Below, one piece after another: positions 21,713 to 22,647 of a stretch of 46,233 nucleotides of DNA. The stretch comes from Escherichia phage vB_EcoS_ASO78B. Position 1 is the first letter of the stretch. Each line of letters starts with the position of its first letter. The stretch is taken from the sequence record MZ726796.1; one strand, written 5' to 3'. Made by a program: the position numbers and the translations under genes. Under the pieces are notes generated by a model, which was given only the letters and a program-made list of their open reading frames with translations, ran no database searches and was not told where the DNA came from.

Positions 21713-21738
21713 AAAGCCGCACTTGGCGGCTTTTAATT
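21713..21738. terminator. bidirectional terminator
   Basis: AAAGCCGC-ACTTG-GCGGCTTT followed by TTAATT. Confidence 0.6.
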
Positions 21739-21912
21739 ATCTTTGCTTTTTATTGAGCTGATAGCATCATCAAATGACTCGAACCTTCCGGCATATCCCC
21801 CACTGGCAAGACTAAGCAAGTACCATTTGTTAATCATTGATATAGAAGCAATGCGCCTGTTGTGGTTGTCAGCGATTCGCCAGTAATCATTATGGATTTG
21901 TTGGATTACCAT
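21733..21912 (-). CDS. small hypothetical protein downstream of tRNAs
   Basis: 59 aa from ATG 21912 with AAGGA RBS; the longer track ORF would overlap tRNA-Arg. Confidence 0.3.
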   Translation of the reverse strand: MVIQQIHNDYWRIADNHNRRIASISMINKWYLLSLASGGYAGRFESFDDAISSIKSKDN

Positions 21913-21927
21913 CGTAATTTCCTTAAC

Positions 21928-22003
21928 TGGCACACCATGCAGGATTCGAACCTGCAACCAATAGCTTAGAAGGCTACTGCTCTGTCCGTTGAGCTAATGG
22001 TGT
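21928..22003 (-). tRNA. tRNA-Arg (anticodon UCU)
   Basis: 76-nt cloverleaf read by hand: 7-bp acceptor stem ACACCAT/ATGGTGT, D-arm GCTC-AACGGACA-GAGC, anticodon loop CTTCTAA, T-arm GCAGG-TTCGAAT-CCTGC, encoded CCA. Confidence 0.8.
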
Positions 22004-22009
22004 TTGATT

Positions 22010-22097
22010 TGGCGGATAGTACAGGATTCGAACCTGTGAACCGTTTCCAGTTTATCGGTTAGCAACCGACTGCTTTCGGCCTCTCAGCCAACTATCC
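22010..22097 (-). tRNA. tRNA-Ser (anticodon GCU), type II
   Basis: 88 nt with long variable arm; acceptor GGATAGT/ACTATCC, anticodon loop TTGCTAA, T-arm ACAGG-TTCGAAT-CCTGT, encoded CCA. Confidence 0.75.
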
Positions 22098-22567
22098 GTT
22101 TATTTAGTGCTGGTTTAAGCATTGCCAGCATGCTTTCCTAATATCCAGCCCCGTAACCCATACATACCCCTACATATGATTGCGATAATGCTGGATATTA
22201 AGTGTTGTGGTGGCCGGCACTGATCTCCGGCTTGCGATGTCACGAATTTGCTACAGTAGAACGTTCACTTTGCTACTGGTCATGAGCGCATCAGCCTGCG
22301 CATTCACCACAACGGAAAGAGCACTGGCTAACCAAGCGCGCAGACTCTTCACGATTATCTGCTCAATGCTCTTACCTGTTGCGTTCCCTGACTTATTAAT
22401 CACACCTCAGGGACGCAGTGCGCCGAATTTGTTTACAAGGAATCGGAATACCTTGCTGACTTACAGGCTATTACGCCGCCATCAGAACAACATCATCGTT
22501 TGCATTTATCTTTGTGGTCAGTTTCTAAAAAGTCCGCAAAGTCGCTCACGAAAACTATCTGAAATAC

Positions 22568-22596
22568 AATCTACACCACAAAATAATCACTGTCAA
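22568..22596 (-). promoter_or_regulatory. consensus sigma70 promoter driving the tRNA transcript
   Basis: minus strand TTGACA, 17-nt spacer, TAGATT; points toward the tRNAs about 480 nt downstream. Confidence 0.55.
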
Positions 22597-22602
22597 CACC
22601 TG

Positions 22603-22611
22603 TGATATAAT
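22603..22611 (+). promoter_or_regulatory. extended -10 promoter (TGaTATAAT) for the major tail protein
   Basis: TG-n-TATAAT 36 nt upstream of ATG 22648, back-to-back with the tRNA promoter. Confidence 0.5.
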
Positions 22612-22647
22612 CACCACGTTAGCAGCTAACACAATTCGGAGATCGAA

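What the first reader, a model, noticed from the sequence alone, without database searches (positions are those of the whole stretch)
21928..22647. tRNA pair transcribed from a consensus promoter through a 480-nt ORF-poor leader
tRNA-Ser(GCU) and tRNA-Arg(UCU) lie on the minus strand. The only strong promoter pointing at them (TTGACA-N17-TAGATT, 22568-22596) is about 480 nt upstream. The intervening sequence has no convincing ORF and contains a 10-bp inverted repeat (AATATCCAGC at 22137-22146 and GCTGGATATT at 22189-22198) and a hairpin at 22115-22133. The leader may encode a structured ncRNA or be a decayed gene.
Basis: partly seen in the sequence, partly recalled or inferred. Interest (0 to 1): 0.5.

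Follow-up and report, generated by a model that had tools for sequence, protein, structure and literature searches.

The report
Phage tmRNA mimic with anti-tmRNA arm
The supposedly empty leader in front of two phage tRNA genes encodes a widely conserved, unannotated RNA that copies the message part of the bacterial ribosome-rescue RNA (tmRNA), lacks its tRNA part and instead carries an arm complementary to the host's own tmRNA, which suggests that many enterobacterial phages tamper with ribosome rescue and protein tagging.

Summary
tRNA-Ser(GCU), tRNA-Arg(UCU), the TTGACA-N17-TAGATT promoter and the inverted repeat are all real. The leader, however, is neither empty nor a decayed gene.

Its first ~180 nt (22561..22381, minus strand) form a tmRNA-derived RNA with four parts:
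- A 42-nt 5' arm homologous to the antisense strand of host ssrA nt 68-108.
- A linker that keeps the frame-setting U(-5) and A(-4).
- A 10-codon tag frame (ANDDVVLMAA, then UAA UAG).
- A stop-codon hairpin and two H-type pseudoknots, supported by covariation.

No tRNA-like domain (TLD) of the tmRNA type is present.

The same core occurs in T1-like, Vi1-like, Felix-O1-like, N4-like, P1-like and lambdoid phages, and in 137 of 5426 complete E. coli genomes. It is never annotated and no Rfam family reaches threshold. All 129 sampled copies keep exactly 10 codons, with synonymous variation. The arm pairs about twice as well with host tmRNA as with its own message, and it fits enterobacterial-type tmRNA best.

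Downstream lie a cargo-bearing hairpin and a tRNA-like domain, then the tRNAs.

My best reading is that this phage RNA anneals to host tmRNA and masks or replaces its tag template. That mechanism is inferred, not shown.

The parts
22568..22596 (-). sigma-70 promoter TTGACA-N17-TAGATT; the predicted transcription start is about 22561-22559
   Evidence: 10 of 12 positions; only minus-strand site in 3 kb. Both hexamers are conserved, with a variable spacer, in other T1-like genera (pYD38-A, L081, L095, L064, L096).
22516..22557 (-). 5' arm UAGUUUUCGUGAGCGACUUUGCGGACUUUUUAGAAACUGACC, antisense to host tmRNA (ssrA) nt 56-107
   Evidence: The family HMM matches the minus strand of ssrA nt 68-108, E=1.5e-4. 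Smith-Waterman against dinucleotide shuffles: 2 of 1000 reach the window's score, 0 of 1000 for L107, O26 and SJ46. Duplex energy is -41.8 kcal/mol against -28.2+-2.8 for shuffles. Pairing with the host beats pairing with its own message in 24 of 24 members. No better partner exists in the phage window. Net -17.5 kcal/mol after opening costs.
22504..22515 (-). Linker ACAAAGAUAAAU upstream of the resume codon; U(-5) and A(-4) are invariant
   Evidence: Invariant columns T65, A66 and A67 of alignment A1. They correspond to U85/A86 of E. coli tmRNA, the frame-setting nucleotides (PMC2481249). ARAGORN recognises the equivalent Mordin sequence as a resume consensus.
22468..22503 (-). tmRNA-type tag reading frame GCA AAC GAU GAU GUU GUU CUG AUG GCG GCG UAA UAG = ANDDVVLMAA**
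   Evidence: Sub-threshold Rfam tmRNA hits. All 129 family copies have 10 codons plus a stop, in 15 peptide variants and 30 nucleotide versions. Codon 10 uses GCT, GCC, GCG and GCA, and the stops are TAA, TAG and TGA. The HMM matches the sense strand of ssrA nt 80-127, E=6.7e-4.
22456..22485 (-). Stop-codon hairpin (helix-5-like): CUGA...UCAG outer stem and GGC...GCC inner stem, with UAA in the loop
   Evidence: helix 1: 4 of 4 pairs with compensatory changes, 100% paired. Helix 2: 83% paired.
22423..22455 (-). Pseudoknot a: S1 CAAGG/CCUUG; S2 loop CCGA with downstream UCGG
   Evidence: helices 3 and 4: 6 of 9 pairs with compensatory changes (for example CCGA/UCGG to CCAG/CUGG and CCAA/UUGG). 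RNAalifold finds S1 independently.
22381..22422 (-). Pseudoknot b: S1 CGCAC with loop GUGUG; S2 GUCCCUGA/UCAGGGAAC; conserved loop GAUUAAUAA
   Evidence: helices 5 and 6: 5 of 8 pairs with compensatory changes. RNAalifold finds S1.
22310..22381 (-). 'Module C': long imperfect hairpin CAACAGGUAAGAGCA.../...UGCUCUUUCCGUUG enclosing a variable 40-nt insert
   Evidence: Inverted repeat I2, 22314-22326/22364-22376. It is in the MFE and centroid folds. It recurs downstream of 68 and upstream of 49 of 129 cores with unrelated inserts.
22204..22313 (-). tRNA-like 3' domain: 7-9 bp closing stem (GU)UGUGGUG/CACCACA(AC), D-like hairpin GCGC-AGGCUGAU-GCGC, variable arm, T-like hairpin GCCGG-AGAUCAGUG-CCGGC abutting the closing stem; the two loops can kiss (GCUGA/UCAGU)
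   Evidence: Inverted repeat I3, 9 bp perfect, present in the MFE and centroid. Found in 21 loci, with 95% sequence identity in the 13-sequence alignment A2 and a variable arm of 32-175 nt. 96% of cells pair against 25-48% when slid. The only covariation is the loop-loop kiss in L033, two compensatory pairs. Neither ARAGORN nor Rfam calls it a tRNA.
22137..22202 (-).
   Evidence: Found only in close T1-like relatives. L096 shows one compensatory U-A to C-G change.
22108..22135 (-).
   Evidence: Not conserved in L064 or L096.
22010..22097 (-). tRNA-Ser(GCU)
21928..22003 (-). tRNA-Arg(UCU)
   Evidence: AGA is used at about 8.9 per 1000 codons in the window's long ORFs (rough).
21733..21912 (-). 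Small protein gene (59 aa) with an AAGGA Shine-Dalgarno sequence; last gene of the operon
   Evidence: phrog_35112, E=1.1e-38, function unknown. No Pfam hit.
21713..21733 (.). Bidirectional intrinsic terminator AAAGCCGC-CAAGU-GCGGCUUU

Best explanation
The region is a phage RNA operon on the minus strand: promoter, tmRNA-derived RNA, cargo hairpin, tRNA-like domain, tRNA-Ser, tRNA-Arg, a 59-aa gene, then a terminator.

The promoter-proximal ~180 nt are a derivative of the host ribosome-rescue RNA (tmRNA/SsrA). This RNA keeps the message half: the frame-setting linker, a 10-codon degron tag frame, a stop-codon hairpin and two pseudoknots. It has lost the tRNA-like half. At its very 5' end it carries an arm that is the antisense of host tmRNA nt ~56-107, which covers the 3' half of pseudoknot 1, U85/A86, the resume codon and tag codons 1-6.

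Inferred mechanism: the arm seeds on the single-stranded tag region of host tmRNA and zips into PK1. This masks the host's own tag template and places the phage resume codon 12 nt beyond the end of the hybrid helix; in the host it lies 10 nt after PK1. Host Ala-tmRNA and SmpB would then rescue stalled ribosomes but read the phage template, adding AANDDVVLMAA-type tags in place of AANDENYALAA.

Shown here: the homology to both strands of ssrA, peptide-level selection on the tag, the pseudoknots, the absence of a TLD, the preferential and host-type-specific complementarity, and the wide distribution. Inferred: that annealing occurs in vivo, that the hybrid is read by ribosomes, and what the altered tag achieves.
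For: **Identity**
- Rfam tmRNA models give the only non-tRNA hits, all below threshold, and they fall on the tag region.
- The family HMM hits the ssrA sense strand at nt 80-127 (E=6.7e-4) and the antisense strand at nt 68-108 (E=1.5e-4).

**The tag is translated**
- 129 of 129 copies have exactly 10 codons plus a stop, in 15 peptide variants.
- Ala, Leu, Val and stop codons vary synonymously.
- U(-5) and A(-4) are invariant, matching the A86/U85 determinants (PMC2481249).
- The tags fit the ssrA-like ClpXP degron motif but never end in the host's YALAA (10.1101/2024.01.29.576913).

**Structure**
- 90.7% of cells pair against 33-43% when partners are slid.
- 16 of 24 pairs are compensatory, and 0 of 500 shuffles reach the observed values.

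**The arm targets host tmRNA**
- All 23 non-Mordin members pick the same site, starting at nt 56; Mordin pairs from nt 80. Duplex energies run from -34 to -50 kcal/mol.
- Mean energy is -41.6 with the host against -19.0 with the RNA's own message; the host is better in 24 of 24.
- Smith-Waterman against dinucleotide shuffles: 0-2 of 1000 reach the score in four lineages.
- Net -17.5 kcal/mol after opening costs, and the cofold MFE contains the hybrid helix.
- Nothing in the 46-kb phage, on either strand, pairs as well.
- Among 80 ssrA genes with an identical tag start, the arm's upstream half fits Enterobacterales (mean -21.4 kcal/mol) and Vibrionaceae/Aeromonas (mean -18.7) ssrA better than the other genera sampled (mean -12.6), with some overlap between the groups.

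**No TLD in cis**
- ARAGORN calls tmRNA in 0 of 129 copies.
- In T1-like phages the transcript starts 2-4 nt before the arm.

**Distribution**
- 649 phage records match the leader.
- At least 120 IMG/VR contigs carry the core pattern.
- 137 of 5426 complete E. coli genomes carry it.
- It sits in tRNA arrays, between Q and the holin, and between dmt and tciA in the P1-like phage SJ46.
Against: - There is no expression, processing or interaction data of any kind.
- A message domain supplied in trans to host tmRNA has no precedent that I know of. A hybrid helix of about 45 bp is bulky and would be a plausible RNase III substrate.
- PK1 tertiary stability is not modelled in the energy estimates.
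- Specificity across the whole E. coli transcriptome was not tested. By extrapolation from the phage-genome background, a few other sites of similar energy could exist.
- Mordin's arm is weak (-23 kcal/mol).
- No trans-covariation with divergent host tmRNAs could be shown. The scan for Aeromonas-type arms found only host ssrA genes.
- The per-column substitution analysis of the arm was inconclusive because of alignment ambiguity.
- Sense-strand similarity of the single window sequence to ssrA is not significant on its own (79 of 500 shuffles).
- Part of the complementarity could be a relic of an ancestral inverted duplication of ssrA.
Confidence: 0.45

Rival explanations
1. Pure anti-tmRNA antisense RNA (inhibitor or sponge). 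The arm anneals to host tmRNA, blocks its tag template or triggers RNase III/E cleavage, and so shuts down trans-translation tagging. The message-like body serves only as a stabilising or mimicking scaffold, for example to bind S1 or SmpB or to co-localise with tmRNA, and is not itself translated.
For: The complementarity evidence is the same as for the best explanation. No TLD is present. A phage RNA that inhibits tmRNA has a precedent in the TLD-only RNA of mycobacteriophage DS6A (PMC4131195; PMC11915505).
Against: - It does not explain peptide-level selection: exactly 10 codons in 129 of 129 copies, four Ala codons at codon 10, all three stop codons, and conservative amino-acid replacements.
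- It does not explain the invariant frame-setting U(-5)/A(-4).
- It does not explain why the RNA's own message has diverged away from its own arm.
Confidence: 0.25
2. Coding piece of a multi-piece phage tmRNA. A phage-encoded tRNA-like RNA supplies the acceptor function and associates with the core. Candidates are the 3' domain at 22313..22204, a permuted tRNA-like gene as in Mordin, or the TLD-3'-like segments seen in some prophage arrays.
For: - ARAGORN calls a permuted tmRNA in Mordin with the tag ANDNVFLAVA**.
- A real permuted tRNA-like gene lies in Mordin's array.
- A tRNA-like domain follows the core in the window and in at least 21 loci, with a D/T-loop kiss.
- Some prophage arrays hold a segment like the tmRNA 3' end.
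- Two-piece tmRNAs exist in nature (PMC11915505).
Against: - ARAGORN's Mordin model is a composite: its 5' domain lies inside a genuine tRNA-Lys.
- The 3' domain is absent from roughly 70-80% of cores, including free-standing ones such as Pollock and ESP2949-1.
- Its closing stem has U3-A70, not the G3-U70 alanine identity, and CCA is not conserved.
- Nothing in the phage window is complementary to the arm, whereas host tmRNA is.
Confidence: 0.12
3. Evolutionary relic or passive spacer. A captured, inverted-duplicated fragment of ssrA now serves at most as a structured leader or processing platform for the tRNA operon, with no action on trans-translation.
For: The element lies upstream of same-strand tRNAs in 53 of 129 copies. 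Complementarity to ssrA could stem from the origin of the sequence. No experimental data exist.
Against: - It is conserved across at least six unrelated phage groups and hundreds of genomes.
- There is strong purifying selection on the tag frame and on pseudoknot pairing.
- The arm stays matched to the host while the RNA's own message diverges.
- 74 of 129 copies have no tRNA nearby.
Confidence: 0.06
4. The leader is protein-coding, as in the 'hypothetical proteins' annotated in relatives (for example the 132-aa plus-strand ORF at 22207-22605).
For: GenBank relatives annotate hypothetical proteins over the region. There is a weak hit to phrog_26260, E=1.7e-5.
Against: The frame carries stop codons in 57 of 94 family members. 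There is no Pfam hit. The substitution pattern follows RNA pairing and the sense-strand tag frame. The PHROG covers exactly the antisense of the conserved RNA core.
Confidence: 0.02

Closest known systems
tmRNA (SsrA; Rfam RF00023 and the permuted families RF01849-51 and RF04321)
   Same: - Resume codon GCA preceded by the conserved U(-5)/A(-4).
- A 10-codon tag beginning AND and ending in small hydrophobic residues.
- A double stop placed in a hairpin (helix 5).
- Consecutive H-type pseudoknots after the frame.
- Profile-level sequence homology to ssrA nt 80-127.
   Different: - No tRNA-like domain: no acceptor stem with G3-U70, no tmRNA T arm, no 3' CCA.
- No PK1.
- Only two pseudoknots downstream of the frame.
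- Carries an arm antisense to ssrA.
- Scores below every Rfam tmRNA threshold.
- Tags never end in YALAA.
Two-piece (circularly permuted) tmRNAs of alpha- and beta-proteobacteria and cyanobacteria
   Same: They show that message and acceptor functions can reside on separate RNA chains held together by base pairing. This is the principle behind the proposed host-phage hybrid.
   Different: In natural two-piece tmRNAs both pieces come from one gene, and the coding piece still carries the 5' half of the TLD. Here the proposed partner would be the host's intact tmRNA, and the joint would be an intermolecular helix that replaces PK1.
TLD-only tmRNA of mycobacteriophage DS6A (Hudson et al. 2014, PMC4131195)
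   Same: A phage-encoded partial tmRNA that is thought to interfere with the host's trans-translation.
   Different: It is the mirror image. [quoted passage not shown]
Prophage-encoded base-pairing RNAs that target host regulatory RNAs (anti-sRNAs such as AgvB and AsxR of EHEC prophages; recalled from memory, not checked here)
   Same: A phage or prophage RNA whose 5' region is complementary to an abundant host non-coding RNA.
   Different: The target here is tmRNA. The complementarity is far longer (about 37 pairs over 52 nt). The RNA also carries a translatable tag template.
Large structured phage RNAs that travel with tRNA genes (GOLLD, ROOL)
   Same: Unannotated, highly structured phage RNA modules located next to tRNA genes.
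   Different: No sequence or model similarity (no Rfam hit). The hosts and the architecture are different.

Membership tests
tmRNA (SsrA) | tRNA-like domain: 5'/3' acceptor stem with G3-U70, T arm, 3' CCA | tested here: not met
   ARAGORN finds no tmRNA in the window or in any of 129 oriented family loci. No Rfam tmRNA hit covers a TLD. The transcript starts at the arm. The downstream tRNA-like domain has U3-A70 and no conserved CCA.
tmRNA (SsrA) | Message domain: resume codon with upstream A(-4)/U(-5), and a short tag frame ending in hydrophobic/Ala residues plus a stop | tested here: met
   The determinants are from PMC2481249.
tmRNA (SsrA) | Pseudoknots flanking the tag frame | tested here: inconclusive
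   Two downstream H-type pseudoknots are strongly supported by covariation. No PK1 lies upstream: RNAalifold proposes only an invariant hairpin there, with no covariation.
tmRNA (SsrA) | Reaches the Rfam gathering score of a tmRNA family | tested here: not met
   Best score is 27.3 bits against a cut-off of 47 (RF04321), and 16.4 against 84 (RF01850). Homologs score similarly.
tmRNA (SsrA) | Alanylation and SmpB-dependent entry into stalled ribosomes | not testable with these tools
   Needs biochemistry.
Two-piece (permuted) tmRNA | Acceptor piece (T arm, 3' acceptor strand, CCA) encoded just upstream of the coding piece in the same transcript | tested here: not met
   In the window the promoter and a divergent tail gene lie immediately upstream. 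ARAGORN's permuted call in Mordin is a composite that uses part of tRNA-Lys.
Trans-acting antisense RNA against host tmRNA (proposed class) | Extended, conserved complementarity to one defined site of the target, better than to self and to the phage genome background | tested here: met
Trans-acting antisense RNA against host tmRNA (proposed class) | Arm co-varies with the tmRNA sequence of divergent hosts | tested here: inconclusive
   The arm fits the Enterobacterales/Vibrio-type PK1 region best. No family members adapted to other tmRNA types were found. The substitution analysis was ambiguous.
Trans-acting antisense RNA against host tmRNA (proposed class) | Physical interaction and an effect on the target in vivo | not testable with these tools
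   Needs RIL-seq or CLASH, Northern blots and genetics.
tRNA / tRNA-like structure (3' domain 22204-22313) | Cloverleaf-like four-way architecture with a 7-bp closing stem abutting a T-like arm, and a D/T loop interaction | tested here: inconclusive
   The stems are present and 96% paired, but nearly invariant. Only the loop-loop kiss shows two compensatory pairs, in one lineage. The T loop is 9 nt rather than 7. ARAGORN and Rfam tRNA do not call it.
Protein-coding gene (decayed or hypothetical) | An open reading frame conserved across homologs | tested here: not met

The most novel reading that the evidence does not exclude
A natural RNA that reprograms host tmRNA in trans. The phage RNA anneals to host Ala-tmRNA, silences the host tag template and supplies its own. 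Ribosome rescue continues, but rescued proteins receive a phage-specified C-terminal tag with altered protease or adaptor specificity. This would be the first message domain donated in trans to a tmRNA, a new way for viruses to take over a host quality-control pathway, and a module shared by T1-, Vi1-, Felix-O1-, N4-, P1- and lambda-like phages.
Probability: 0.3. Interest if true: 0.95.

Novelty: new variant of a known kind. Interest (0 to 1): 0.85.

Why it matters
- **Biology.** Trans-translation is close to universal in bacteria, is a drug target, and is known to influence the growth of some phages. Apart from complete tmRNAs and one TLD-only RNA in actinobacteriophages, the literature I could search names no phage factor that acts on tmRNA itself. 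A widespread, conserved phage RNA that pairs with host tmRNA and carries its own degron template would show that common enterobacterial phages, including therapy candidates and prophages of pathogenic E. coli, manipulate ribosome rescue and protein turnover.
- **Testability.** It would also make the question of what determines template choice on tmRNA directly testable with a natural trans system.
- **Annotation.** Hundreds of phage genomes carry 'hypothetical proteins', and at least one PHROG, that are probably miscalls over this RNA. A covariance model would correct those annotations.

Tried and rejected
- **Rfam.** Scans at permissive thresholds on the window and 14 homologous loci found no family above threshold except tRNAs and STnc100 elsewhere.
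- **ARAGORN.** It calls no tmRNA in the window or in 129 family loci. The single permuted call, in Mordin, turned out to be a composite.
- **Direct BLAST of the leader against ssrA.** This gave only weak hits (E=0.19). The sense-strand Smith-Waterman score of the single sequence is not significant. Significance appears only with the family profile.
- **An intramolecular role for the arm.** RNAalifold proposes only an invariant hairpin with no covariation. The arm pairs poorly with its own message.
- **Canonical TLD by eye.** GGGGCUGG at 22192 resembles the tmRNA 5' end, and CCACCA at 22213 resembles a 3' end. Neither forms an acceptor stem: the former is one strand of the lineage-specific hairpin, and the latter is the closing strand of the 3' domain.
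- **Protein-coding reading.** Rejected.
- **Trans-covariation.** The scan of viral contigs for arms adapted to Aeromonas/type-2 Vibrio tmRNA returned only host ssrA genes at prophage borders and unrelated coding sequence.
- **Per-column substitution analysis of the arm.** Inconclusive because of indels in the alignment.
- **Literature.** Searches for phage tmRNA-like, anti-tmRNA or ssrA-like RNAs and for the tag peptides themselves found nothing relevant. The supplements of the 2025 tmRNA database paper held no phage list.
Full report
**Observation.** ARAGORN finds two genes in the 46-kb window, at exactly the stated coordinates: tRNA-Arg(tct) at 21928-22003 and tRNA-Ser(gct) at 22010-22097, both on the minus strand. 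Rfam agrees, with 70.9 and 57.5 bits. The only minus-strand sigma-70-like site within 3 kb is TTGACA-17-TAGATT at 22596..22568. A bidirectional terminator lies at 21713-21733. Between tRNA-Arg and the terminator sits a 59-aa gene with a Shine-Dalgarno sequence. It belongs to phrog_35112 (E=1e-38), of unknown function. It is part of a 13-bp hairpin. The small hairpin exists as well. The window is a T1-like siphophage; its relatives include Sf11, IME207, KFS-SE2 and Bas77-81. The RNA operon lies in inverse orientation just upstream of the major tail protein gene.

**What the leader is.** A permissive Rfam scan gave, besides the tRNAs, only sub-threshold hits of tmRNA models on 22594..22422. The sequence there reads AAAGAUAAAU GCA AAC GAU GAU GUU GUU CUG AUG GCG GCG UAA UAG CCUG. 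E. coli ssrA reads AAAAAAUAGUC GCA AAC GAC GAA AAC UAC GCU UUA GCA GCU UAA UAA CCUG. The phage tag is therefore ANDDVVLMAA, against the host's ANDENYALAA.

BLAST shows the leader is not private to this phage. 649 phage records match it. The shared block starts almost exactly at the predicted transcription start. Matches come from several unrelated phage groups:
- T1-like phages.
- Ackermannviridae (CBA120, KP6).
- Felix-O1-like phages; in Mordin the element sits inside a 17-tRNA array.
- The N4-like phage Pollock.
- Phage 7-11.
- The P1-like phage SJ46, between dmt and tciA.
- Lambdoid prophages of E. coli, between the Q antiterminator and the holin.

These contexts are documented. The core is present in 137 of 5426 complete E. 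coli genomes. It is always chromosomal and never annotated.

**The tag frame is under selection as a coding sequence.** In 129 copies, counting the window and the GenBank loci, the frame is always 10 codons plus a stop. There are 15 peptide variants: ANDDLMMVAA, ANDDVVLMAA, ANEEMYLAVA, ANDEQFLAVA, ANDDLMLMAA, ANDNTFLAVA and others. The 30 distinct nucleotide versions show several coding signatures:
- GCT, GCC, GCG and GCA all appear at codon 10.
- TAA, TAG and TGA all appear as the stop.
- Leu is CTG or TTG, and Val is GTT, GTA or GTG.
- Asp/Glu/Asn replacements are conservative.

The scan pattern fixed only the first three codons, so the length and stop conservation are genuine observations. 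U(-5) and A(-4) before the resume codon are invariant. In E. coli tmRNA these are U85 and A86, and A86 is the main frame-setting nucleotide and nearly universal (PMC2481249). The tags fit the ssrA-like ClpXP degron motif [L/F/Y/W]-[L/A/R]-L-A-A, or LVA, defined by a recent screen. Yet none ends in YALAA, the ending that is almost fixed in gammaproteobacteria (10.1101/2024.01.29.576913).

**Structure.** I aligned 24 diverse cores. On that alignment, a stop-codon hairpin and two consecutive H-type pseudoknots give the following:
- 90.7% of cells pair, against 33-43% when the partners are slid.
- 16 of 24 pairs have compensatory changes.
- 0 of 500 shuffles reach the observed values.

RNAalifold finds the two S1 stems on its own. 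Together with the tag frame, this is the body plan of a tmRNA from the linker through about PK3.

**What is missing.** There is no tRNA-like domain of the tmRNA type. ARAGORN calls no tmRNA in the window or in any of the 129 oriented loci. No Rfam tmRNA model reaches threshold. In the T1-like phages the transcript begins 2-4 nt before the conserved block. ARAGORN's one permuted-tmRNA call, in Mordin, borrows its 5' domain from a genuine tRNA-Lys and is a composite.

**The 5' arm.** The first 42-46 nt are highly conserved: GUUUUCGU, a variable spacer, GCGACUUUGCGG, then UUUUAGAAACUGACC. They are not similar to the sense strand of ssrA; they match its complement. Several lines support this:
- Smith-Waterman against the reverse complement of ssrA aligns the arm to nt 68-106. 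Only 2 of 1000 dinucleotide shuffles reach the window's score, and 0 of 1000 do so for L107, O26 and SJ46.
- A profile HMM of the family hits the ssrA locus twice. The arm matches the minus strand at nt 68-108 (E=1.5e-4). The linker, tag and stop hairpin match the plus strand at nt 80-127 (E=6.7e-4).
- RNAduplex places 23 of 24 diverse arms on the same site starting at nt 56; Mordin's pairs from nt 80. Energies are -34 to -48 kcal/mol, with Mordin at -23. The same arms reach only -12 to -28 on their own linker and tag region. The means are -41.6 and -19.0, and the host is better in 24 of 24.
- The phage's own message reads CCACAAA where the host has CCGCAAA. No phage tag contains the host's ACGAAAAC. 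So the arm matches the host rather than itself.
- After paying the opening costs of both RNAs, the net energy is -17.5 kcal/mol for the full helix. It is -7.1 for the seed on the single-stranded tag region. The cofold MFE contains the hybrid helix.
- Apart from its own template strand, no site in the 46-kb phage on either strand pairs as well. The best is -36.5 against a background of -19.8+-4.1, while ssrA gives -41.8.
- I fetched 80 ssrA genes from many genera that share the identical tag start. The arm's upstream half fits Enterobacterales best (mean -21.4 kcal/mol), then Vibrionaceae/Aeromonas (mean -18.7), then the other genera (mean -12.6), with some overlap between the groups. It is therefore tuned to the PK1 region of these phages' hosts, not merely to the tag.

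**The rest of the leader.** Three further elements follow the core.
- Module C (22381..22310) is a long imperfect hairpin with a variable insert. The same stems recur upstream or downstream of the core in half of the loci, with unrelated inserts.
- A highly conserved domain follows (22313..22204). It has a 7-9 bp closing stem, a D-like hairpin, a variable arm of 32-175 nt, and a T-like hairpin that abuts the closing stem. The stems pair in 96% of cells but hardly vary. The only covariation is a double compensatory change in L033 that preserves a 5-bp kiss between the two loops. The architecture is tRNA-like, but it has U3-A70 and no conserved CCA, so it is not an alanine-accepting TLD.

The core is the autonomous unit. 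Only 26-37 of 129 copies have the 3' domain. 55 of 129 have a tRNA within 1.5 kb, always on the same strand and downstream in 53. Free-standing copies with their own terminator exist, as in Pollock.

**Not a protein.** The plus-strand 132-aa ORF weakly matches a 46-aa PHROG just where it is antisense to the core. That frame carries stop codons in 57 of 94 family members, and there is no Pfam hit. The 'hypothetical proteins' annotated in relatives are therefore probably miscalls.

**Mechanism.** Two facts need explaining together. One is a tag template that is evidently read by ribosomes yet has no TLD. The other is a 5' arm that is maintained complementary to the very part of host tmRNA that holds the host's template.

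The most economical reading is that the phage RNA anneals to host tmRNA. This would mask U85/A86, the resume codon and codons 1-6, and unfold PK1. It would present its own resume codon 12 nt beyond the end of the hybrid helix, where the host's lies 10 nt beyond PK1. Host Ala-tmRNA and SmpB would then resume translation on the phage template. Natural two-piece tmRNAs show that separate chains held by pairing can work (PMC11915505). From memory, PK1 can be replaced by a simple hairpin in E. coli; I did not check this here.

I give this reading 0.45. The pure-inhibitor variant gets 0.25; it has a mirror-image precedent in the TLD-only RNA of phage DS6A (PMC4131195). A phage-encoded acceptor partner gets 0.12. 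All of these are inferences, because no expression or interaction data exist.

**Novelty.**
- The tag peptides appear in no searchable paper.
- Searches for phage tmRNA-like, anti-tmRNA or ssrA-like RNAs found nothing relevant.
- The 2014 tmRNA survey lists phage ssrA only in mycobacteriophages and Bacillus phage G.
- The 2025 database keeps only sequences complete from 5' to 3' end, which would exclude a TLD-less form.

I rate it a new variant of a known kind, a tmRNA derivative. The mechanism would be categorically new if the hybrid model is right.

Noticed in passing
L007 (Citrobacter phage Mordin) about 975-1060, and on to about 1130: A circularly permuted tRNA-like gene sits inside the tRNA array. 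It reads T arm GAAGG-UUCGAUU-CCUUC, 3' acceptor strand ACCCUUC, G, CCA, a 4-nt linker, then the 5' acceptor strand GAAGGGU and a D-arm-like segment. Further on, GCUAAAUAGUC|GUC CCA UGA resembles the E. coli ssrA resume context AAAAAAUAGUC|GCA.
   Followed up: partly
L087, L107, L125, L076 and L092 (prophage arrays), about 250-330 nt downstream of the core: The segment GGUGCUGGGUUGAUCUCCAGCCGUCAGCUCCACGAAAC resembles the tmRNA 3' end GCGGGUUCAACUCCCGCCAGCUCCACCA (T arm plus CAGCUCC acceptor strand). It lies between two module C hairpins and may be a TLD remnant. Rfam did not call it.
   Followed up: partly
L005 2741-2954 (Klebsiella phage KP6); L008 2404-2523 (SJ46); L125 3641-3722: Rfam STnc100 (RF02076) hits lie about 1 kb from the core. 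The KP6 hit is above the gathering score (49.7 against 47); the other two are below it. This is another ncRNA travelling in the same phage RNA-module regions.
   Followed up: no
window 22387-22512 (+), and phrog_26260: A 46-aa PHROG of unknown function matches the translation antisense to the conserved RNA core. The frame is broken in 57 of 94 homologs, so the PHROG and the 'hypothetical proteins' annotated in relatives are probably miscalled ORFs.
   Followed up: yes
window 21733-21912 (-): A 59-aa gene with a good Shine-Dalgarno sequence is co-transcribed after tRNA-Arg. It belongs to phrog_35112 (E=1e-38), function unknown, with no Pfam hit.
   Followed up: partly
window 22310-22381 (-), and many loci: Module C stems (..ACAGGUAAGAGCAUU / AGUGCUCUUUCCGUUGU..) recur around different 'cargo' inserts, some with T-arm-like GGUUCGAAUCC sequences. 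They flank both the core and the 3' domain. They look like processing stems (RNase III type?), but this is unexplained.
   Followed up: partly
window 22511-22518 and 22575-22582: An 8-nt perfect inverted repeat links ACCACAAA of the linker with the promoter spacer. One arm lies upstream of the predicted transcription start. Its meaning is unknown.
   Followed up: no
window, all long ORFs: AGA is used at about 8.9 per 1000 codons and AGC at about 14.6 per 1000, in a rough ORF set. The AGA figure is several-fold above what I recall for E. coli, which is consistent with the phage carrying tRNA-Arg(UCU).
   Followed up: partly
L003 (CBA120) and L005 (KP6), immediately upstream of the core: In Ackermannviridae the core is preceded by a long hairpin (CUGUUUGAG...CUCAAACAG). 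The GUUUUCGU motif is tandemly duplicated there (GGUUUUCGUUUUCGUU).
   Followed up: no
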